Shown here piece by piece: positions 46,941 to 56,328 of a stretch of 64,000 nucleotides of DNA. Positions within the stretch are counted from its first letter, which is position 1. Every line of letters starts with the position of its first letter. The position numbers and the translations under genes were made by a program. Origin of the DNA: Escherichia coli O127:H6 str. E2348/69 (lineage in GTDB: Bacteria > Pseudomonadota > Gammaproteobacteria > Enterobacterales > Enterobacteriaceae). The stretch lies in assembly GCF_000026545.1 (NCBI RefSeq), contig NC_011601.1; one strand, given 5' to 3'. The notes below the pieces were generated by a model. The model searched no databases. It was not told where the DNA came from and was given only the letters and a program-made list of their open reading frames with translations.

Positions 46941-49763
46941 ATGACGGCAGAGTACATCAGGGACTGGCAACAACCGCGCCACGCAGTGGGGCGTGAAGGA
47001 ACGGGGATCCCCGCTCCTGAATCCGCGCTTTCCTCCTGGCTGGATGCCTACCGGGCAGAGAACGAGCACCGCCAGGAAATGGCTGATGCGGCGTTCTCCG
47101 CCACGCCGCTGGGCAACCTGATTAATAAAAGCCTGGACGCACAGGAAAAACAGGACAAAACCATCACACTGGCAGGAGACGCCAGAAAACAGGCACGCGG
47201 CGCGGTGGATGAAGCCATGGCCTCGCTGCGCCTGCTGCCGTCCTATCTGCGCGATCCGCTTATTCGCCACCTCTCCTTCCTGCGCAAAAAACAGGAAGCC
47301 GATCGTCAGAAAGGAAAAAACGCCAGGCAGGCAGAACGCTATGCGCGTGGGACCCTGCGCAAAATATTCGAACGTCTGGAGCGCACCGATCACCGCTGGC
47401 TGACACCGGGTTATCGCTCCCTTGCCGGACGCGAACGCCTGGACGATTTGCTTTACCTGCCGCAGCTCAACAAACACCAGATAAAGACGCTGGCAACCAT
47501 GACGGCGGCGATGTTCAGCAGCACCTTCGAAAAACTCTGCGATGGCTTTGGCGCGACCGATGGCGAGCTGACCATGGATGTAACCCTGAAGGCGTATCAG
47601 ATGCTGGCCCGCATGGCGTTACACCTGCACGCCATGCCTCCACATTATGACGCACTGACAACAGACAAAGACCGGAGGAACGAACCGGACACGGAGCTGC
47701 TGCCGGGCGCAATCCTTCGCCTGACCTGTGCGGAATGGTGGAAACGCAAACTGTGGCTGTTACGTTGCGAGTGGAGAGAAGAACAACTCCGCGCCGCCTG
47801 TCTGGTTTCCAGAAAAACATCGCCCTATCTGAGCCAGGACGCGTTAAGCGAGTTTCGCGCACAGCGCGAGAAAACACGCGATTTCCTGAAAAGTTTCATG
47901 CTGGAAAACGAAGACGGGTTCACGATTGATCTCGAGACAGTGTATTACGCGGGAGTAAGTAACCCGGTTCACCGTAAGGCAGAAATGATGGCCACCATGA
48001 AGGGACTGGAACTTCTGGCCGAAGCCCGTGGCGACAGAGCGGTGTTTCTGACTGTCACCTGCCCGTCAAAATACCACGCAACAACGGAGAACGGTCATCC
48101 GAACCCCAAATGGAACGGGGCCACCATGCGCGACTCCAGCGATTACCTGGTTAACACGTTTTTTGCGGCGGTCCGCAAAAAACTGAACCGCGACGGCCTG
48201 CGCTGGTATGGCATCCGCACGGTGGAGCCTCACCATGACGGCACCGTGCACTGGCATATGATGGTCTTTGCTCATCCGGAAGAAATCGACAGCATCGTGA
48301 CCATCACCCGCGATATTGCCATTCAGGAAGACCGCCACGAGCTGGGCAATGATATTACTCCGCGCTTTAAGGTGGAGTACGTCGACGGCACCAAAGGCAC
48401 GCCAACCAGCTACATCGCCACCTACATCGGAAAAAACCTGGACAGCCGCGCCGTGGATGGCATCGACCCGAAAACGGGCAAACCACGCGTTGACCACGAA
48501 ACCGGAAAATCAATGGCCGAGAGCGTGGAGCGCGCCATCGGTTGGGCACGCCTTCACCGGGTCCGCCAGTTCCAGTTCTTTGGCATCCCCTCCCGTCAGG
48601 TGTGGCGTGAACTCCGCCGCCTTGCCAGCCAGATGGCACGCAACCCGGAAGGCCCGCAACGGCTGAAGGATGACGCAATGGATGCGGTACTCGCTGCCGC
48701 TGATGCCGGATGTTTTGCCACCTACATAGAGAAACAGGGCGGTGTACTTGTTCCACGCAAAGACTACCTGATTCGCACCGCCTACGACCTCGCCGATGAG
48801 CTGAACGATTACGGCGAACAGAGTGTACAGATTTACGGGATCTGGTCACCACTCATCGGGGAATCCTCCCGTGTGTGCACGCACCCGGATAACTGGAAGC
48901 TGGTAAGACGTAAACCGGAACAGGAAGGCAGCGCCCACGAAAATGGTTTTGACCTTCAGGGCGGCCCTGCCGCCCCTTGGACTCGTGGCAATAACTGTCC
49001 CCGTGTACAGGAAACGGACAACAACGGGACAGAACAGCCGGAAGAACGGCCAGCACCGTGGCCGCAGCTCCCTGACGGCGTTGAAGTGAACGAATGGGTG
49101 CGCTCACTGAAACGGCACGAACGCCGGGCGCTGATGCGTTCGCTTCGTGACAAACAGGCAAAAAACAGCAGTGATGAAATGCAGAGCTGGACACAGAGCC
49201 GCAAACAGCAGCGGCCTTTGCCTGATAACCACGAATTACTCGCTAAAGAATGGCGGGAGTCTGCTGAATCTCTCGGCCTGCATATCGGTGAACAGCAGAT
49301 GCAGCACCTGTTACGGGGCGGCAGCCTGTACGTTGACGGCAGCATCATTGCACCGCAGGGATATGAAATTGTACGTAAACCGGATACCCGCCCGGACAGC
49401 CGAATCACGCAGCTCTGGCAACGCCTGAGCCGTAACCACGGCGTAAGCAGCACGGAGATCCGCCATAACCCGGTCGCCAGCTATCTGGAACAACTAGGGG
49501 CATCAGACCCTGAAGCCGCCGCACGCCTGGCATCCACACTTCAGCAAGACCAGAACACCATGAAAACACCCGTTACCGTACTTTCTGACATGCTGCGCGC
49601 CATCCGCGACGCAGAGCACGAACAGAGAATCAGTGAAACAACTGAACGCGCCCGCCGCAAAGCAGACCTGCTGCGGGGTGGCCTGACCAGTGGAAACAAA
49701 AAACAGACAAAAACGGGATTCACAAATCCCGTAAATGAGCAAAAAACGCGCCGCGATATATGA
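46941..49763 (+). CDS. A: Rolling-circle replication initiator (P2 gpA-like HUH endonuclease), 940 aa
   Basis: HUH motif (GTVHWHMMVF) and Y-x3-Y active-site pair (YIATYIGKN) as in P2 A. Confidence 0.85.
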   Translation: MTAEYIRDWQQPRHAVGREGTGIPAPESALSSWLDAYRAENEHRQEMADAAFSATPLGNLINKSLDAQEKQDKTITLAGDARKQARGAVDEAMASLRLLPSYLRDPLIRHLSFLRKKQEADRQKGKNARQAERYARGTLRKIFERLERTDHRWLTPGYRSLAGRERLDDLLYLPQLNKHQIKTLATMTAAMFSSTFEKLCDGFGATDGELTMDVTLKAYQMLARMALHLHAMPPHYDALTTDKDRRNEPDTELLPGAILRLTCAEWWKRKLWLLRCEWREEQLRAACLVSRKTSPYLSQDALSEFRAQREKTRDFLKSFMLENEDGFTIDLETVYYAGVSNPVHRKAEMMATMKGLELLAEARGDRAVFLTVTCPSKYHATTENGHPNPKWNGATMRDSSDYLVNTFFAAVRKKLNRDGLRWYGIRTVEPHHDGTVHWHMMVFAHPEEIDSIVTITRDIAIQEDRHELGNDITPRFKVEYVDGTKGTPTSYIATYIGKNLDSRAVDGIDPKTGKPRVDHETGKSMAESVERAIGWARLHRVRQFQFFGIPSRQVWRELRRLASQMARNPEGPQRLKDDAMDAVLAAADAGCFATYIEKQGGVLVPRKDYLIRTAYDLADELNDYGEQSVQIYGIWSPLIGESSRVCTHPDNWKLVRRKPEQEGSAHENGFDLQGGPAAPWTRGNNCPRVQETDNNGTEQPEERPAPWPQLPDGVEVNEWVRSLKRHERRALMRSLRDKQAKNSSDEMQSWTQSRKQQRPLPDNHELLAKEWRESAESLGLHIGEQQMQHLLRGGSLYVDGSIIAPQGYEIVRKPDTRPDSRITQLWQRLSRNHGVSSTEIRHNPVASYLEQLGASDPEAAARLASTLQQDQNTMKTPVTVLSDMLRAIRDAEHEQRISETTERARRKADLLRGGLTSGNKKQTKTGFTNPVNEQKTRRDI

Positions 49764-49839: not shown

Positions 49840-50799
49840 ATGAAAATTTGTATCGACGACGGCTCCACCAACATCAAGCTGGCATGGACTGAGAACGGCG
49901 AACACCGCAACGCCATCAGCCCGAACAGCTTCAAGTCGGAATGGTCTGCGCCGTTCGGTGGCACGCAGCCCGCGAACTACATGCTTGATGGCGTGCGCTA
50001 TGGTTTTGATCCGGTCAGCGATCGCTTTGTCCAGACGACCGACACGCAATACCAGTACAGCGATGTGAATGTCATTGCCATTCATCATGCGCTGGTCAAA
50101 TCAGGCATCACGCCACAGGAGGTGGATGTGGTTGTCACCCTGCCACTGAGCGAGTATTTCGACACAAACGCACAGCCGGACATGGCCAACATCAACCGCA
50201 AAAAAGCGAACGTTATGCGCCCGGTGGAGTACCAAAACGGCGAGGCATTCACTATCCGTAACGTGCGGGTTATGCCTGAATCCATTCCGGCTGGCTTTAA
50301 AGCACTGGCTGACATGAGTCCGTTTGAATCCCTGCTGATTGTGGATTTGGGCGGAACCACGCTGGATGTGGCAAAGGTTCAGGGGCAACTGGCAGGTATC
50401 AGCCAGGTGTTTTGCGATCCACACGTAGGCGTTTCTCTGATGGCCGATGCCGTGCTGTCGGTGATGGCCACCAACGGTATGCGCACCAGTCACCACATCG
50501 CCAATACCATTATCGAACATCGCCACGATGAAGCCTGGCTGCGCCAGCACATCCACAATGACGCGCATTACGCCAGCCTGATGGCAGTTATTCGTGAAAA
50601 GGAGGAAACACTGAAACAACGCGTGATCCGCGCGCTGGCGGTTTTTTCGGGTTACGGGCGGGTGATGGTTGTCGGTGGAGGGGCGGAGATTGTGGCACCC
50701 GCTATCCGCGAAGCCTGCGGAGTTAATGCGACTTTCATCGCGGACGGGGTGCCACAGTTTGCTCTGGTTAATGGGCTGTACGCAATGGACAAGGAGTAA
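49840..50799 (+). CDS. parM: ParM/StbA-like actin-type partition ATPase
   Basis: IDDGSTNIKL...ISPNSFK...YSDVNVIAIHHAL...RKKANV...VMPESIPAG...DLGGTTLD...VVGGGAE closely parallels plasmid R1 ParM. Confidence 0.85.
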   Translation: MKICIDDGSTNIKLAWTENGEHRNAISPNSFKSEWSAPFGGTQPANYMLDGVRYGFDPVSDRFVQTTDTQYQYSDVNVIAIHHALVKSGITPQEVDVVVTLPLSEYFDTNAQPDMANINRKKANVMRPVEYQNGEAFTIRNVRVMPESIPAGFKALADMSPFESLLIVDLGGTTLDVAKVQGQLAGISQVFCDPHVGVSLMADAVLSVMATNGMRTSHHIANTIIEHRHDEAWLRQHIHNDAHYASLMAVIREKEETLKQRVIRALAVFSGYGRVMVVGGGAEIVAPAIREACGVNATFIADGVPQFALVNGLYAMDKE

Positions 50800-50803
50800 A
50801 CCA

Positions 50804-51115
50804 ATGACGACTCCAACCAGACGGATAAGTTTCTATCTGAAGCCCACCGCCGTCAAGAACGAAGGAGAAGCATGCGCCTGGCTGGACAGCCTTACACCAG
50901 AAGCCCGCAAAAGCGGCCAACGCGTGGCTTTTCTGGCCGGGCTGGCACTTCTGAAAATGAATCCGGCAGAGGCTTACCGACTGGCTGCATGGGCTGATGA
51001 TGAGGTGTTATCAGTGACACAAACCAAGACAGAACGCCCCGCGTCACAGCCAGTATCAACCGCACAGATAACCAGTCAGATGGCCGGAAATATCCGGGCG
51101 TTATTTCCTGAATAA
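50804..51115 (+). CDS. parR: ParR-like centromere-binding adaptor
   Basis: RRISFYLKP...WLDSLTPEARKSGQRVAFLAGLAL...RALFPE parallels R1 ParR (RTIAFKLNP...TLDSIP..RS..RAALTAGLAL...SLFPKE); internal-Met start. Confidence 0.7.
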   Translation: MTTPTRRISFYLKPTAVKNEGEACAWLDSLTPEARKSGQRVAFLAGLALLKMNPAEAYRLAAWADDEVLSVTQTKTERPASQPVSTAQITSQMAGNIRALFPE

Positions 51116-51493
51116 CATCAGGGCGTATTCGCCCTGCCACCAATCCCATAACATAAAGAACGGGGTGCAAATCACTATACACCCCGTTCCAATACAAACC
51201 ATCAGAAGATCTACACATCTTTCTCAAATGGCCAAGTAATCGAGCTGGTTCAGGAATAAGCATGCTGCCAACACAAGTGAAGGAGATAAAACTGTAGAAC
51301 TGATCAATCGTTGGAAACAAGTATTGACAGTATGTTCGAGTAACCCAACTGGATAGATTTTATGCTGATTATCCATACAGTAAAAAAGTAAGGATACTCT
51401 TTGAATTACGCCAGCAAGAGTGGTAACATTAGTCAATGATTTTCATTAATGTAGTTACCAGCTTACACAAGCTGATGTTTTATTGGGGGTTTT

Positions 51494-52576
51494 ATGGTAA
51501 ACGTGAGGGAGGATGAACTTTTCAAACTCATCGAGCAAGGCATCAAAGGCAACGCAAATGCATTTACACTCCTATGCAGAAAGATGATTAACAACATCCG
51601 TAAAAATGATGAGGCTTTAGCTTCTAAGCTGGCTTCGTTAGTTGCTGAGGGAACAGTATTACGTGGGGCATCTAGTAAGGCTCCTATGCCTGTGGATGGA
51701 GACTCCAGACGAAACCTTTTGCAGGAAACATCTGTCAACGCAATTGTTGAAGAACCTGTATGGAATACGGATATCTCAAAGAAGCTGGAGTCAATTGTTA
51801 ACGAAAGAGAGAATGCGGTTTCTTTGTTCAAAGCTGGTCTTGAACCTGTGAAGACGGTTTTACTTTCTGGCCCGCCAGGCGTAGGCAAAACAATGTCCGC
51901 ACATTGGCTTGCTGCAAAGTTAAATTTACCTCTTTTAACATTGGATCTCTCATCTGTAATGAGTTCTCTTTTGGGAAAAACAGGTAATAATATTAAATCC
52001 GTTATGGATTATGCCAAAGAGAAACCATGTGTCCTTTTGCTTGATGAATTTGATGCTGTTGCAAAAAGACGTGATGATGACAGGGACGTTGGAGAATTAA
52101 AACGTTTAGTTACTGTACTCCTACAGACCATAGATGAGTGGCCAGCGACCTCGCTTCTTGTTGCTGCGACTAATCACCCTGATATCTTAGATCCGGCTGT
52201 TTGGCGTCGATTTGAGCACATCCTTAAATTTAATATGCCATCAGTAGAACTGATAGATAGATATTTAGTCAATCATAATATTGAACCTGAACTATCTAAA
52301 AAACTTGCACCATTATTAGATGGCATGTCCTTTGCCATCATTAACCGTATTTTGAATTTCTCCAAAAAGAATGAGGTACTTAGAAATATTCCATTTGAAA
52401 GCTCATTAATAGAAGCCGTAATTACGGAGAGGGTTTCATTGGATGAGTTTAGCGATAATGATCTCAATATAATTAAATATCATTTTGACGGTTTTTCAAA
52501 TAGGAAGATAGCTGAATTAGTTGGTGTTTCACATCCAACAATCGCGAATAAATTACAAAAGTGGGGGATTAAATGA
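51494..52576 (+). CDS. Classic-clade AAA+ ATPase with C-terminal LuxR/GerE-like HTH (360 aa); candidate defence component
   Basis: Walker A GPPGVGKT (aa 126-133), Walker B LLLDEFD (aa 181-187), sensor-1 ATN, second-region-of-homology-like DILDPAVWRRFEH; C-terminal NRKIAELVGVSHPTIANKLQKWGI HTH. Confidence 0.85.
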   Translation: MVNVREDELFKLIEQGIKGNANAFTLLCRKMINNIRKNDEALASKLASLVAEGTVLRGASSKAPMPVDGDSRRNLLQETSVNAIVEEPVWNTDISKKLESIVNERENAVSLFKAGLEPVKTVLLSGPPGVGKTMSAHWLAAKLNLPLLTLDLSSVMSSLLGKTGNNIKSVMDYAKEKPCVLLLDEFDAVAKRRDDDRDVGELKRLVTVLLQTIDEWPATSLLVAATNHPDILDPAVWRRFEHILKFNMPSVELIDRYLVNHNIEPELSKKLAPLLDGMSFAIINRILNFSKKNEVLRNIPFESSLIEAVITERVSLDEFSDNDLNIIKYHFDGFSNRKIAELVGVSHPTIANKLQKWGIK

Positions 52577-54777
52577 TGGAAAGGAACTTACTTTTAGGTA
52601 ACGGTCATGTTCTGACAAAAAAGGAACCTTTGCCTAAAGGAAGGGATGGTAAGCGCTATCCCTATACTCTTGAAGAAGTAAGGGAGCATTTAAACCCAGA
52701 GATTGATACTTTACTCTCACGCTTTCGCAGTTTGGATGATGCGGCTAAGCCAAGGGGGGAGAGTGTATTCAATTTAACTTTACACCCAGCGTTTTTGGGT
52801 AAAAGCTACTTTCCGGAAGGATTGCTTAGAGCGACAGGTTTACGGGATGTCGGCAGCCGTCAGGTAATCATTCGCCCACGGAAAGCGGCACGTCAGTGCG
52901 ATCAGAATAAGGACTTAGTAACGGCGCAACTGTTTGTTAGCGGTGATGATGATGCCGTTATAAGATTTAAGGAAATTTTAAATTCCCCTACAGCTCCGAA
53001 GGGCGTACAAAAGGATTTGATCGAAATTGAAAGTGTTAGCTTTTTTGAAGGAAAAGAGAGAGCACGCAATTTTGAGCATGCGAAAAGTGATTTGATAAAA
53101 TTTGAAGTGGTTCTTCATGCTGGGGTTGAAGACGATGATATCGTTAAAGCCTATATTAGCTATGCGGCACAATATGATGTCTCTGTTGATTACAAAAGTA
53201 GAATCCAAGTTGGTGGGCTGACTTTCATCGTTGCACACGCGCGACCTGAAGATATGAAAAAAACACTCGATTTTTCATTAATCCGCGTTGTGCGGCCGAT
53301 GCCGTCTCTCAGGTGTACTCAGCCGAACATTGTCAGAAAGTTATCTAATATAGTTACACCGGAGCTCCCTAATTCTAAAGCTGTTCTTGAATCCGAACGT
53401 ATTGCCATTTTTGATGGTGGCTTGGGGACAGCTGACTTGAGTAATTGGGTTACGGAATACGTGTATCCAGACACCAAAGAAACAAGCGGATTATTATTGC
53501 AGCACGGTAATGAAGTGACATCCACTTTCTTATTCGGACGTGTCGAGGAAAATGCACCTTCTTTTAAAAGACCGTTTATGAATGTAGATCATTATAGAGT
53601 TCTTTCACCGACATCAGGTGACAATGGCAATTGGGATTTATTTGATGTCCTTAAGAAAATACAGTCCGTTCTTGATAGTGGTGACTATAAGTTCGCTAAT
53701 CTAAGTATTGGTCCTCATCTTCCAATTGGTGATGATGAGGTTCATGTATGGACTGCTGTTTTAGACCAAATCTGTGCTAAGCATGGGATATTACTTACTG
53801 TTGCTGTTGGGAATGATGGCAATGAGGACGGTGATGCAGCGAGAATACAACCTCCTTCCGATATGGTAAACGCGCTAGCGATTGGTGCTGCTGATCGTAG
53901 CGGTGAAAAATGGGGGCGGGCACCATATAGCTGTATTGGGCCAGGCAGAAGCCCCGGATTCGTTAAACCTGATGGTGTTATTTTTGGTGGAAGCGACGAC
54001 GAGCCTTTTTACACTTACAACCCTCTGCTTGGTTCTATAGTTGGAGTTCAAGGAACCAGTTATGCCTCTCCATTAGCATTGAGAACGGCCGCTGGAGTTG
54101 CGGCTCTATCAGGAACTCCATTGAACACCATTGCATTGAAAGCGTTGCTTGTTCATCATGCTGAAACATCAAGAAAATATTCGCGTGAACATATCGGTTG
54201 GGGACGGTTTAGTGAGGATCCTAACGTTTTAATCGATTGTCCAAATGATACTGCTACAGTAATTTACTATGGTTCATTAGCAAAAAATAAATATTTAAGG
54301 GCACCGATCCCATTCCCTGATGTTCCCTTTGACGAAGCATTTGAGCTTACCGCTACTTTATGCATTCAAACCCCAGTAGATCCTGAACATTCAGTAAACT
54401 ATACAAGGGCCGGTATGCAGGTAACTTTCCGCCCAAGATTCGGCCTTGACGATACCGATACAGATGATTTCTTTGGTCAAAAAAGCCAGTATAAGACTGA
54501 AAGGGAGTGTAGGAGTGAAGGTCATAAGTGGGAAACTTGTTTGCACAGAAGCAAAAAGTTCAGTGCTGATACATTATTAAGCGATCCAGTTTTTGATATA
54601 CGGTATCATGCCCGAGATTCTTCGCGCCATGTTAAGGGAGTTTCAGCCCCTGATATGCAATATGCGATGGTAATAAGCGTAAGGGTAAAAGACTTTGATT
54701 TATATAATGTTATTCGCCAGCGATATACAATTCTGAATCCTATTCAACTGCGCACACAAATTTCTCTCGACACGTAA
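52573..54777 (+). CDS. Subtilisin-like (S8) serine peptidase, 734 aa, no signal peptide; candidate defence effector
   Basis: Catalytic order D-H-N-S: IAIFDGG (D281), HGNEVTS (H311), VAVGNDG (N414), GTSYASPLA (S496); ~270-aa N-terminal and ~230-aa C-terminal regions unassigned; start overlaps ATPase stop (ATGA). Confidence 0.85.
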   Translation: MMERNLLLGNGHVLTKKEPLPKGRDGKRYPYTLEEVREHLNPEIDTLLSRFRSLDDAAKPRGESVFNLTLHPAFLGKSYFPEGLLRATGLRDVGSRQVIIRPRKAARQCDQNKDLVTAQLFVSGDDDAVIRFKEILNSPTAPKGVQKDLIEIESVSFFEGKERARNFEHAKSDLIKFEVVLHAGVEDDDIVKAYISYAAQYDVSVDYKSRIQVGGLTFIVAHARPEDMKKTLDFSLIRVVRPMPSLRCTQPNIVRKLSNIVTPELPNSKAVLESERIAIFDGGLGTADLSNWVTEYVYPDTKETSGLLLQHGNEVTSTFLFGRVEENAPSFKRPFMNVDHYRVLSPTSGDNGNWDLFDVLKKIQSVLDSGDYKFANLSIGPHLPIGDDEVHVWTAVLDQICAKHGILLTVAVGNDGNEDGDAARIQPPSDMVNALAIGAADRSGEKWGRAPYSCIGPGRSPGFVKPDGVIFGGSDDEPFYTYNPLLGSIVGVQGTSYASPLALRTAAGVAALSGTPLNTIALKALLVHHAETSRKYSREHIGWGRFSEDPNVLIDCPNDTATVIYYGSLAKNKYLRAPIPFPDVPFDEAFELTATLCIQTPVDPEHSVNYTRAGMQVTFRPRFGLDDTDTDDFFGQKSQYKTERECRSEGHKWETCLHRSKKFSADTLLSDPVFDIRYHARDSSRHVKGVSAPDMQYAMVISVRVKDFDLYNVIRQRYTILNPIQLRTQISLDT

Positions 54778-54784
54778 TTTTTAT

Positions 54785-54806
54785 GGCCGCGAAAGCGGCC
54801 TTTTTT
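54785..54806 (+). terminator. Rho-independent terminator after the peptidase gene
   Basis: ggccgc-gaaa-gcggcc hairpin followed by T6. Confidence 0.65.
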
Positions 54807-54953
54807 CTGTAATTTTTTTATGAATTTACATGCACGATAGTGCACAAATTTGCACAATTTTTTTGAACGAATTTTTGCCCTTCTGGCCCGCGTGGCGGCT
54901 GGATCCGTCAGGGATCCGTGCGTGCACAAAAAAACGCGCTTTTTCTGCGCGCA

Positions 54954-54972
54954 GGTGACGGGGGAACAGCCC
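54954..54972. other. Candidate cos (cohesive-end) site
   Basis: ggtgacgggggaacagc resembles the P2/186 cos core GGCG(A/T)GGCGGGGAAAGCA(C/T) and lies at the expected place upstream of the Q 3' end. Confidence 0.3.
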
Positions 54973-55281
54973 GCGTTTCAGGGGGTAAATAGCATCCCCT
55001 GAACGATGTCGCAGCGACACAACAGAATGGCTGTATTTCTCACGCTGAGCGTGAAAAAGACGTGAGGGCTTTTGATTTGATGGGGTGACAGATAAGGCCG
55101 TCAAAATCGCACTGAGGCGGCGAGAACATGCAGTCAACGCGGTGGGATTGCGTAAGAGCCTGACCGTCGATGATGGCGATAAGCTGGAAGACGTCGTGAA
55201 ATTATCTGATTGATACAGGAGCTGGAGAGTCGGGGCATAAATTTTTTATGCCCCGACGAAGCAGCAGACAAGCGAAGCGCG

Positions 55282-56328
55282 TCAGGATGTGGGCTGGGTG
55301 TCTAACAGTGCGTAAGGGTTAAAGCGGATCACCTCTTCGCCAAGCCAGTCATTGATGTGCTTCATAGCCTCCATAACGGGCATCAGCTCGTTAATTGCAT
55401 AAACCCGCGCGGCCTTCTCCACATCACCAAACGCACTTTTTTCGCCCGGCATCGCCCCCATCAGTTGCGGCGGAACGCGGTGCGCAGCCAGTACATCATC
55501 ACGGGATGCCGCCTTAACATTCATGAACTCATCCTTTGCGGTGATCTGCTGGAACGGCAAAATTTGCACCCCCTCTTTGCCCCCGTTGGGCGCATGAATG
55601 AGCACGTTTTTAAATGCACCACCACCACGCGCACCCTGTAACGTTTCTTTCAGGGAGTCCATGCTTTCGCGGTTTACCTGCGCTGCACCGATGTAGATGA
55701 TGCACCCGGCGTGGGATCCGTTGTCGTAGTACAGTTTTCTGAACATGTCCGCCGAATGAGAAAGGCTGGCCGAGAGTAATGCGCCAAGATATTCCGGCAT
55801 GCCGTAGATTTCCTGGTTAATATCCGGATTCATCAGGTGGCATACTTTGCCAGGGCGAAACTGAAACGCGTCCTTACCATCCTGCACATACCACCATGAT
55901 TCAAGATCGCTTCCGCGTCGCATGTATTTCGCCAGGGCGTGCCGTAATTTAAGCGGTTCGCCGAGCATATTGCTTCGAAGCTCAAGGAATGCATTACCGA
56001 ACACAAACCAGTCCAGCGCCAGCGCCGAGAAATCCTGCCGGGAAAGCAGCGGGTGCGGGATGTAGCAACCGAGTAATACATTGCGCTTAAAGTAAAGCGC
56101 AGACTGATGCCAGGACGTTTGCCGGGCTGCTCTTGCCAGACCGTACCAGTCCACCGGGGTTTCATACCACCGCCCGTTATCAGCACAGTACATATTGTCC
56201 AGCAGGTCATGCCCGGTCAGGCGATAAGGACCATCAAATGTGAATGCACTGAGCGATGATTCTTTCCTGAGCGCATCAGCGAGATCAATGCGTGAACTCA
56301 TGCGCACTTTTTTGTTTTTTCTGCTCAT
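55282..56328 (-). CDS. Q: Portal protein (P2 gpQ-like)
   Basis: 348-aa ORF, size and position as P2 Q, paired with P on minus strand. Confidence 0.88.
   Translation of the reverse strand: MSRKNKKVRMSSRIDLADALRKESSLSAFTFDGPYRLTGHDLLDNMYCADNGRWYETPVDWYGLARAARQTSWHQSALYFKRNVLLGCYIPHPLLSRQDFSALALDWFVFGNAFLELRSNMLGEPLKLRHALAKYMRRGSDLESWWYVQDGKDAFQFRPGKVCHLMNPDINQEIYGMPEYLGALLSASLSHSADMFRKLYYDNGSHAGCIIYIGAAQVNRESMDSLKETLQGARGGGAFKNVLIHAPNGGKEGVQILPFQQITAKDEFMNVKAASRDDVLAAHRVPPQLMGAMPGEKSAFGDVEKAARVYAINELMPVMEAMKHINDWLGEEVIRFNPYALLDTQPTS

What the first reader, a model, noticed from the sequence alone, without database searches (positions are those of the whole stretch)
52573..54777. Cytoplasmic subtilase with unassigned N- and C-terminal domains
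Subtilisin-fold peptidases are usually secreted with a signal peptide and propeptide. Here the N-terminus (MMERNLLLGNGHVLTKKEPLPKGRDGKRYPYT) has no hydrophobic signal. The catalytic domain (D281, H311, N414, S496) is preceded by ~270 aa and followed by ~230 aa of unrecognised sequence, the latter including a Cys/His-containing stretch (CRSEGHKWETCLH). This fits an intracellular, regulated protease whose flanking domains could act as sensor or auto-inhibitor.
Basis: partly seen in the sequence, partly recalled or inferred. Interest (0 to 1): 0.6.

Follow-up and report, generated by a model that had tools for sequence, protein, structure and literature searches.

The report
IetS protease of prophage IetAS defence
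The ORF is the protease half (IetS) of a known two-gene ATPase/protease toxin-antitoxin and anti-phage system (IetAS), carried in the defence hotspot of a P2-like prophage of E. coli E2348/69; this locus is already catalogued, but how the system works is still unknown.

The parts
51494..52576 (+). ietA: 360-aa AAA+ ATPase of the classical clade. Walker A is G126PPGVGKT, Walker B is D184E, sensor-1 is N227, and the Arg fingers are R238/R239. The pore-loop-like motif is S-[L/F]-L-G. A C-terminal HTH spans aa 335-359. In the family it is the antitoxin/regulator.
   Evidence: PADLOC IetA PDLC02196, E 3.6e-89, residues 7-356. NCBIfam IteA scores 253 bits against a cut-off of 510. Pfam AAA 122-247 and HTH_50 335-359. 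The motifs are invariant in 4 homologues. Closest solved relatives are p97/Cdc48/PAN/FtsH.
52573..54777 (+). ietS: 734-aa cytoplasmic S8 subtilase. In the family it is the toxin/effector.
52573..52665 (+). IetS aa 1-31: an invariant N-terminal peptide (N5, LLL, G9, G11, E12, L14 ... K27, P30, Y31). It is disordered in the isolated N-domain model but more confidently placed in the full-length model.
   Evidence: Conservation. pLDDT is 33-37 in the isolated model against 74 for aa 1-10 in the full-length model.
52666..53382 (+). IetS aa 32-270: a long helix, then two beta-alpha-beta-beta-alpha-beta units (about aa 63-157 and 175-242), then a conserved linker (MPxLR247...P251...R255...LP266). Prodomain-like.
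53383..54207 (+). IetS aa 271-545: subtilisin-fold catalytic domain with D281, H311, N414 (oxyanion hole) and S496.
54208..54774 (+). IetS aa 546-734: C-terminal beta-sandwich (jelly-roll-like) domain. It carries a conserved but poorly modelled loop, E643..R647..H651-K-W653-E654.
54785..54800 (+). Intrinsic-terminator-like hairpin (GGCCGCGAAAGCGGCC followed by a T-run) 8 nt after the ietS stop codon. This is the likely end of the ietAS transcript.
   Evidence: sequence.
46941..49763 (+). P2-type replication endonuclease (gpA-like): left border of the hotspot.
   Evidence: RefSeq annotation of the identical E2348/69 sequence. Hotspot definition from PMC9122126.
55282..56328 (-). Phage portal protein (gpQ-like): right border of the hotspot.

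Best explanation
The ORF is IetS, the serine-protease component of an IetAS system. IetA is an AAA+ ATPase encoded just upstream and translationally coupled to it. The pair is cargo in the gpA-gpQ defence hotspot of a P2-like prophage of E. coli E2348/69.

Shown here: identity and architecture; an intact catalytic triad and intact ATPase motifs; cytoplasmic location; conserved pairing of the two genes across Proteobacteria; and the fold of the flanking domains.

Taken from the literature on other IetAS members: IetS is toxic; IetA neutralises it and appears to need an intact ATPase site to do so; protease activity is needed for defence; and defence works by abortive infection, set off by a phage protein.

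Inferred mechanism: IetS is made as a zymogen-like intracellular subtilase. Its own prodomain-like N-terminal module, and possibly its invariant N-terminal peptide, limit access to the active site. A hexameric IetA, a Cdc48/PAN-type machine with a preserved pore loop, uses ATP to keep IetS inactive by holding, remodelling or unfolding it. IetA probably also autoregulates the operon through its C-terminal HTH. A phage product, or phage-induced loss or titration of IetA, releases IetS. IetS then cleaves essential cell or phage proteins and stops growth before the phage completes its cycle. The same toxin-antitoxin logic can also stabilise the prophage.
For: Family: PADLOC IetS and IetA match over nearly the full lengths. 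BLASTP against a PGAP-certified IteA/IteS pair is collinear (24% identity over aa 32-663, E 9e-21; 34% over full length, E 9e-62). A published PADLOC table lists ietAS at NC_011601.1:1875494-1878777, which is 3,284 bp, the same as window 51494-54777.

Context: 100% identical to E2348/69 and located between the replication endonuclease and the portal, which is the hotspot defined in PMC9122126. The same cassette occupies the same slot in the isolated Peduoviridae phage phiT5282H at 98.5% aa identity. GC is 41% against 48-57% in the adjacent 2-kb windows.

Conserved pairing: the AAA (~360 aa) -> S8 (~730 aa) order is kept in Pseudomonas, Klebsiella and Alteromonas relatives.

Activity: the triad is invariant and the ATPase motifs and the [L/F]-L-G pore loop are invariant.

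Folds: the full-length model aligns with pro-forms over more residues than the ~220-250 that most catalytic-core-only chains give, and the isolated N-domain's top hits are subtilase prodomains.

Literature: protease as toxin and ATPase as antitoxin; an ietA mutant could not be constructed; protease activity needed for defence; mechanism still unknown (PMC13069673). Abortive infection triggered by a phage protein (10.1101/2022.08.27.505566). The mycoplasma AAA/subtilase pair behaves as a toxin-antitoxin system (PMC8562856).
Against: Nothing was tested experimentally for this clade. It is only about 24% identical to PGAP-type IteS and scores far below the NCBIfam equivalog cut-offs (115.7 against 900 bits; 253 against 510 bits). 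The E. coli variant tested by Wu et al. (from ECOR52) is a different sequence, since its primers do not match the window.

Confidence: 0.65

Rival explanations
1. The main role is addiction (post-segregational killing) that stabilises the P2-like element, not defence against other phages. Cells that lose the prophage lose IetA faster than IetS and die.
For: IetAS was first described as a plasmid-stability toxin-antitoxin system of pTiC58 (cited in PMC13069673, and PMC8562856). Here it lies directly downstream of a ParM-type partition system in the same hotspot. The nearest non-enterobacterial relatives, at 35-40% identity, are mostly on large plasmids.
Against: The locus sits in a hotspot that is rich in defence systems. 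The same cassette occurs without ParM in phage phiT5282H. Other IetAS members do protect against phage. The two roles are not mutually exclusive.
Confidence: 0.2
2. IetA is the activator rather than the brake. On sensing infection, the AAA+ ring pulls the prodomain-like module or the N-terminal peptide off IetS and so switches the zymogen on.
For: IetS has a pro-form-like architecture. It has an invariant, flexible N-terminal peptide suited to engagement by an unfoldase. IetA belongs to the Cdc48/PAN/FtsH clade and keeps a pore-loop motif.
Against: In other IetAS systems, loss or mutation of the ATPase is lethal or cannot be constructed, and the protease alone is toxic. That argues for a restraining role.
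Confidence: 0.12
3. It is an ordinary secreted or morphogenetic subtilase, for example a virion maturation protease or a peptide-processing protease, that merely lies next to an ATPase.
Against: There is no signal peptide or TM segment. No precursor-peptide or biosynthetic genes are nearby. P2-type phages already encode their own scaffold and capsid functions elsewhere. The gene is accessory, present in only 31 of 5,426 E. coli genomes, and is always paired with the ATPase.
Confidence: 0.02

Closest known systems
IetAS/IteAS anti-phage system (Gao et al. 2020; NCBIfam NF042956 IteS and NF042959 IteA; PADLOC IetS/IetA)
   Same: It is a two-gene operon with the AAA+ ATPase upstream of a ~730-750-aa S8 peptidase, and the genes overlap. 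The N-domain / S8 / C-domain layout is collinear. The catalytic and ATPase motifs are intact, and it is carried on mobile elements and defence islands.
   Different: It is only about 24% (IetS) and 34% (IetA) identical to a PGAP-certified pair, and it is far below the NCBIfam equivalog cut-offs. It belongs to a separate, large clade: 482 clusters at 50% identity with E <= 1e-30. Anti-phage activity of this clade was not found tested in the papers held.
IetA/IetS plasmid-stability toxin-antitoxin system of Agrobacterium pTiC58 (Yamamoto et al. 2009, J Bacteriol 191:4656; known here only through citations)
   Same: It has a protease toxin and an AAA-ATPase antitoxin and sits on a mobile element. 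Relatives of the window protein at 36-37% identity are found on Agrobacterium and Rhizobium plasmids.
   Different: Here the host element is a P2-like prophage rather than a plasmid. The pTiC58 sequence itself was not among the plasmid hits and was not compared directly.
Mycoplasma TA132/133 AAA-ATPase/subtilisin-like toxin-antitoxin system (PMC8562856)
   Same: The sizes match (353 aa + 757 aa) and so does the gene order. The protease is toxic in E. coli and is neutralised by the ATPase.
   Different: It is chromosomal in Mollicutes. Sequence similarity to the window protein was not measured.
ietHAS (Liu-DS4; PMC13069673)
   Same: It shares the IetA/IetS core, and protease activity is required for defence.
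   Different: ietHAS has an extra SNF2-family helicase, IetH. No helicase gene lies next to the window pair.
Pro-subtilases with a C-terminal beta-sandwich (KP-43 1wmd, ProN-Tk-SP 3afg, pro-subtilisin E 3whi, fervidolysin 1r6v)
   Different: Those enzymes are secreted with signal peptides and have a single prodomain. IetS is cytoplasmic, has two beta-alpha-beta-beta-alpha-beta units plus an invariant N-terminal peptide, and is controlled by a separate AAA+ protein.

Membership tests
IetAS (PADLOC definition) | IetS-family S8 peptidase matched by the family HMM over most of its length | tested here: met
   PDLC02197, E 6.6e-41, residues 22-707 against profile positions 24-718 of 749. Five further IetS models also match.
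IetAS (PADLOC definition) | IetA-family AAA+ ATPase encoded next to it on the same strand | tested here: met
   PDLC02196, E 3.6e-89, residues 7-356. The genes overlap by 4 nt.
IetAS (PADLOC definition) | An independent published call of this locus as ietAS | tested here: met
   The supplementary table of Wu et al. lists GCF_000026545.1 NC_011601.1 ietAS (padloc) at 1875494-1878777, which is 3,284 bp, the same as window 51494-54777.
IteS / IteA equivalogs (NCBIfam NF042956 / NF042959) | Whole-protein score at or above the curated cut-off | tested here: not met
   IteS scores 115.7 bits against a cut-off of 900, and IteA scores 253.1 against 510. This explains why RefSeq names them only 'S8 family peptidase' and 'AAA family ATPase'.
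IetAS (functional definition) | IetS is toxic and IetA neutralises it | not testable with these tools
   Known only for other members.
IetAS (functional definition) | The system protects against phage and needs the protease active site | not testable with these tools
   Reported for other members. The tested ECOR52 variant is not this sequence.
Subtilase family S8 | Asp-His-Ser triad in subtilisin order, an oxyanion-hole Asn, and the subtilisin fold | tested here: met
Secreted pro-subtilases | N-terminal signal peptide | tested here: not met
   There is no hydrophobic N-terminal segment, and the maximum 19-residue hydropathy mean is 1.45, located internally. No dedicated predictor was run.
Subtilase prodomain / inhibitor I9 fold | A beta-alpha-beta-beta-alpha-beta module packed on the catalytic domain, with its C-terminal tail in the substrate cleft | tested here: inconclusive
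P2-like phage defence hotspot cargo (Rousset et al. 2022) | Located between gpA (replication) and gpQ (portal) of a P2-like phage | tested here: met
   Replication endonuclease at 46941-49763 and portal at 55282-56328 flank the locus. Definition. The same slot is used in phage phiT5282H.

The most novel reading that the evidence does not exclude
IetS is a true intracellular zymogen. Its tandem prodomain-like modules and invariant N-terminal peptide block the active site, and the Cdc48/PAN-type IetA ring gates its maturation by ATP-driven remodelling. This would be an AAA+-controlled zymogen switch for abortive infection, a control logic not described for any bacterial immune protease. The almost invariant but poorly modelled loops (aa 414-429, 453-464, 641-653) would be the surfaces that bind IetA or the trigger.
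Probability: 0.2. Interest if true: 0.6.

Novelty: already known. Interest (0 to 1): 0.3.

Why it matters
The practical value is in annotation. RefSeq labels this pair only as 'S8 family peptidase' and 'AAA family ATPase', although it is an IetAS system in the P2 defence hotspot of the prototype EPEC strain E2348/69. The curated NCBIfam models miss a whole large clade of the family. On the biology, the IetAS mechanism is still open. The fold assignment made here gives concrete hypotheses for how a cytoplasmic subtilase is kept harmless and then released. That assignment is prodomain-like N-terminal modules, a C-terminal beta-sandwich, an invariant N-terminal peptide and three invariant flexible loops. 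None of this changes the classification of the locus.

Tried and rejected
1. A metal-binding Cys/His motif at aa 646-658 was rejected. C646 and C656 are not conserved, and only E643, R647, H651, W653 and E654 are.

2. Sequence-level assignment of the flanks failed. Pfam on the query and on all 43 aligned members gave only Peptidase_S8. A profile of the N-domain against PDB sequences gave nothing at E <= 10. phmmer against PDB matched only the subtilisin core.

4. The idea that the N-terminal module is a sensor domain shared with other effectors was rejected. The top 50 Foldseek AFDB50 hits are IetS-type S8 peptidases or fragments of them.

5. An internal duplication of the two N-terminal units could not be shown. 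hhalign gave probability 1% over 6 aligned columns, leaving only a shared 'LH' motif.

6. I asked whether this exact variant is the E. coli ietAS tested by Wu et al. It is not, because the ECOR52 primers have no match in the window within 3 mismatches.

7. The P2 cos 19-mer, recalled from memory, was not found in the window, so no cos coordinates are claimed.

8. The consensus scan found no sigma-70-like promoter on the + strand upstream of ietA.

9. The founding pTiC58 paper (PMC2704731) is not held. Its claims are cited second-hand.
Full report
Observation. The ORF exists exactly as described. It runs from 52573 to 54777 on the + strand and encodes 734 aa beginning MMERNLLLGNGHVLTKKEPLPKGRDGKRYPYT. 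D281, H311, N414 and S496 sit in canonical subtilase motifs (FDGG, HGNEV, GNDG, GTSYASP). They are invariant in an alignment of 43 homologues and at least 95% conserved in 241 full-length homologues of 33-100% identity. Pfam recognises only Peptidase_S8 at residues 288-544, both in the query and in every aligned member. About 270 N-terminal and 190 C-terminal residues therefore have no Pfam assignment. No hydrophobic N-terminal segment or TM-grade stretch is present, although no dedicated signal-peptide predictor was available. The quoted Cys/His stretch is at aa 646-658, but its two cysteines are not conserved. The conserved residues there are E643, R647, H651, W653 and E654, so it is not a Cys/His metal site.

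What it is. The gene is the second of a tightly coupled pair. A 360-aa AAA+ ORF at 51494-52576 overlaps its start codon by 4 nt (ATGA). Against PADLOC, the protease matches IetS (PDLC02197, E 6.6e-41, residues 22-707 of 734). The ATPase matches IetA (PDLC02196, E 3.6e-89, residues 7-356 of 360). NCBIfam's best hits are IteS_antiphage and IteA_antiphage, but both fall far below the curated equivalog cut-offs (115.7 against 900 bits; 253 against 510 bits). A direct BLASTP against a PGAP-certified IteA/IteS pair from Acidovorax plasmid p1-T1 is collinear. IetS is 24% identical over residues 32-663 (E 9e-21) and IetA is 34% identical over its full length (E 9e-62). The pair is therefore a divergent member of the IetAS family with the same architecture.

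Where it is. The window is 100% identical to E. coli E2348/69 (EPEC O127:H6), and the cassette is present in 31 of 5,426 complete E. coli genomes, always as a pair. Window positions 1 to about 43,000 are core chromosome (ydhV to btuC), followed by a P2-like prophage. The pair lies between the replication endonuclease (46941-49763) and the portal gene (55282-56328, minus strand). Rousset et al. defined that interval as the cos-proximal defence hotspot of P2-like phages (PMC9122126). The cassette has 41% GC against 48-57% in the adjacent 2-kb windows, and a terminator-like hairpin follows the stop codon at 54785-54800. The isolated Peduoviridae phage phiT5282H carries the same cassette (98.5% aa identity) in the same slot. 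The supplementary PADLOC table of Wu et al. (10.1101/2022.08.21.504612) lists 'ietAS' in E2348/69 at NC_011601.1:1875494-1878777. That span is 3,284 bp, exactly the length of window 51494-54777. The locus is thus already catalogued. The E. coli variant those authors tested came from ECOR52 and is a different sequence, because neither cloning primer matches the window.

Family breadth and synteny. A full HMMER scan of 1.84 billion cluster representatives found 1,457 clusters at E <= 1e-3 and 482 at E <= 1e-30. Most of the 150 best-scoring representatives listed are about 720-760 aa and match end to end. The AAA (~360 aa) -> S8 (~730 aa) order, with overlapping or abutting genes, is kept in three relatives. 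These are a Pseudomonas relative beside a Toprim/DUF927 primase island, a Klebsiella relative at the end of an HP1/P2-like prophage, and an Alteromonas relative in a chromosomal islet. Plasmid-borne relatives at 35-40% identity occur in Agrobacterium, Rhizobium, Xanthomonas, Streptomyces and others. Proteins that PGAP labels 'iteS' are only 22-25% identical. The window pair therefore belongs to a large clade that the curated NCBIfam models do not cover.

The flanks are under strong constraint. Conserved residues include Y31, P72, G94, S95, E153, E178, R238 and R241 in the N-terminal part, and T595, Y610, T611, R647, W653 and R681 in the C-terminal part. The first 31 residues form an invariant peptide. 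It is disordered in the isolated N-domain model but better placed in the full-length model (pLDDT 33-37 against 74 for residues 1-10). This suggests that it docks on the catalytic or C-terminal domain.

The partner. IetA has a classical-clade AAA+ module. Its closest solved relatives are p97/Cdc48, PAN and FtsH. Walker A and B, sensor-1, the two Arg fingers and an S-[L/F]-L-G motif at the pore-loop position are invariant in four homologues. It also has a C-terminal helix-turn-helix (Pfam HTH_50, aa 335-359).

Mechanism. Published work on other IetAS members states several things. The protease is the toxin and the ATPase is the antitoxin. A plasmid carrying mutated ietA could not be constructed. 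Protease activity is required for defence. The anti-phage mechanism remains unknown (PMC13069673). A Bacillus cereus IetAS acts by abortive infection and becomes toxic when a single phage protein is expressed (10.1101/2022.08.27.505566). The mycoplasma AAA/subtilase pair behaves as a toxin-antitoxin system (PMC8562856).

Combining this with the anatomy found here, the best-supported model is as follows. IetS is a zymogen-like cytoplasmic subtilase. IetA, probably as a hexamer, spends ATP to keep it inactive and probably autoregulates the operon through its HTH. Infection removes that restraint, through a trigger protein or through loss or titration of IetA, and IetS then cleaves essential proteins and arrests the cell. 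Identity, architecture, intact motifs and folds are shown here. Toxicity, neutralisation and abortive infection are taken from relatives. The zymogen mechanism and the way IetA restrains IetS are inference. The rivals are a primarily addictive role (supported by the adjacent ParM partition genes and the plasmid-borne relatives), IetA acting as an activator, and an ordinary secreted or morphogenetic protease (rejected).

Novelty and verdict. However, this is a known system in a known hotspot, and this very locus is already listed as ietAS. What this analysis adds is the fold-level assignment of the flanks, the identification of invariant flexible elements, and the point that this clade falls below the NCBIfam equivalog thresholds. 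I searched the held library for papers on IetS structure or a zymogen mechanism and found none. Interest is moderate to low (0.3). The remaining value lies in the unsolved mechanism of IetAS.

Noticed in passing
window 49840-51115 (+): A ParM-like segregation ATPase (49840-50799) and a 'plasmid partitioning/stability' gene (50804-51115) share the gpA-gpQ hotspot, directly upstream of ietAS. Rousset et al. report such partition systems in about a quarter of P2-like phages. Phage phiT5282H has ietAS in the same slot without them.
   Followed up: partly
window 52496-52570 (+), IetA aa 335-359: IetA ends in a helix-turn-helix (Pfam HTH_50, E 1.5e-5; NCBIfam HTH_TypR 26.7 bits against a cut-off of 30). 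This suggests that the antitoxin-like ATPase also binds DNA, possibly for autoregulation.
   Followed up: partly
window 53812-53859, 53929-53964 and 54493-54531 (IetS aa 414-429, 453-464, 641-653): Three loops are almost invariant across 241 homologues yet are modelled with pLDDT below 50. They are candidate interaction or regulatory surfaces.
   Followed up: partly
window 52768-52785 and 53101-53118 (IetS aa 66-71 and 177-182): The first strand of each N-terminal beta-alpha-beta-beta-alpha-beta unit ends in the same motif with an invariant His (FNLTLH71 and FEVVLH182). The hhalign comparison between the two units is otherwise not significant.
   Followed up: partly
window 54778-55281: The intergenic region between ietS and the portal gene contains an unannotated 103-aa ORF (54826-55137, minus strand) and a second terminator-like hairpin on the minus strand (54952-54934). 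The P2-type cos site is expected here, but the 19-mer recalled from memory gave no match.
   Followed up: partly
window 51119-51190 (-): Two terminator-like hairpins on the minus strand lie between the partition gene and ietA. The consensus scan found no sigma-70-like promoter on the + strand upstream of ietA.
   Followed up: no
L007 (Acidovorax plasmid p1-T1) 2707-7291: The PGAP-labelled iteA/iteS pair sits next to a Shedu nuclease gene and a site-specific integrase, flanked by IS21 copies. This is a small defence island on a mobilizable plasmid.
   Followed up: no
plasmid NZ_CP077309.1 (Enterobacter hormaechei), hit H64: A homologue of IetS at 38% identity is split into two pieces by an IS3-family element (ISEc52). 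This is consistent with inactivation of a potentially toxic gene.
   Followed up: no
phage records OR818368.1 (Pseudomonas Pf phage PfAC08) and Paenibacillus phages Dash, Callan and Yyerffej: Full-length IetS homologues (37.5% and about 25% identity) are encoded by a filamentous Pf phage and by Paenibacillus larvae siphophages. IetS-type proteases are therefore phage cargo well beyond P2-like phages.
   Followed up: no
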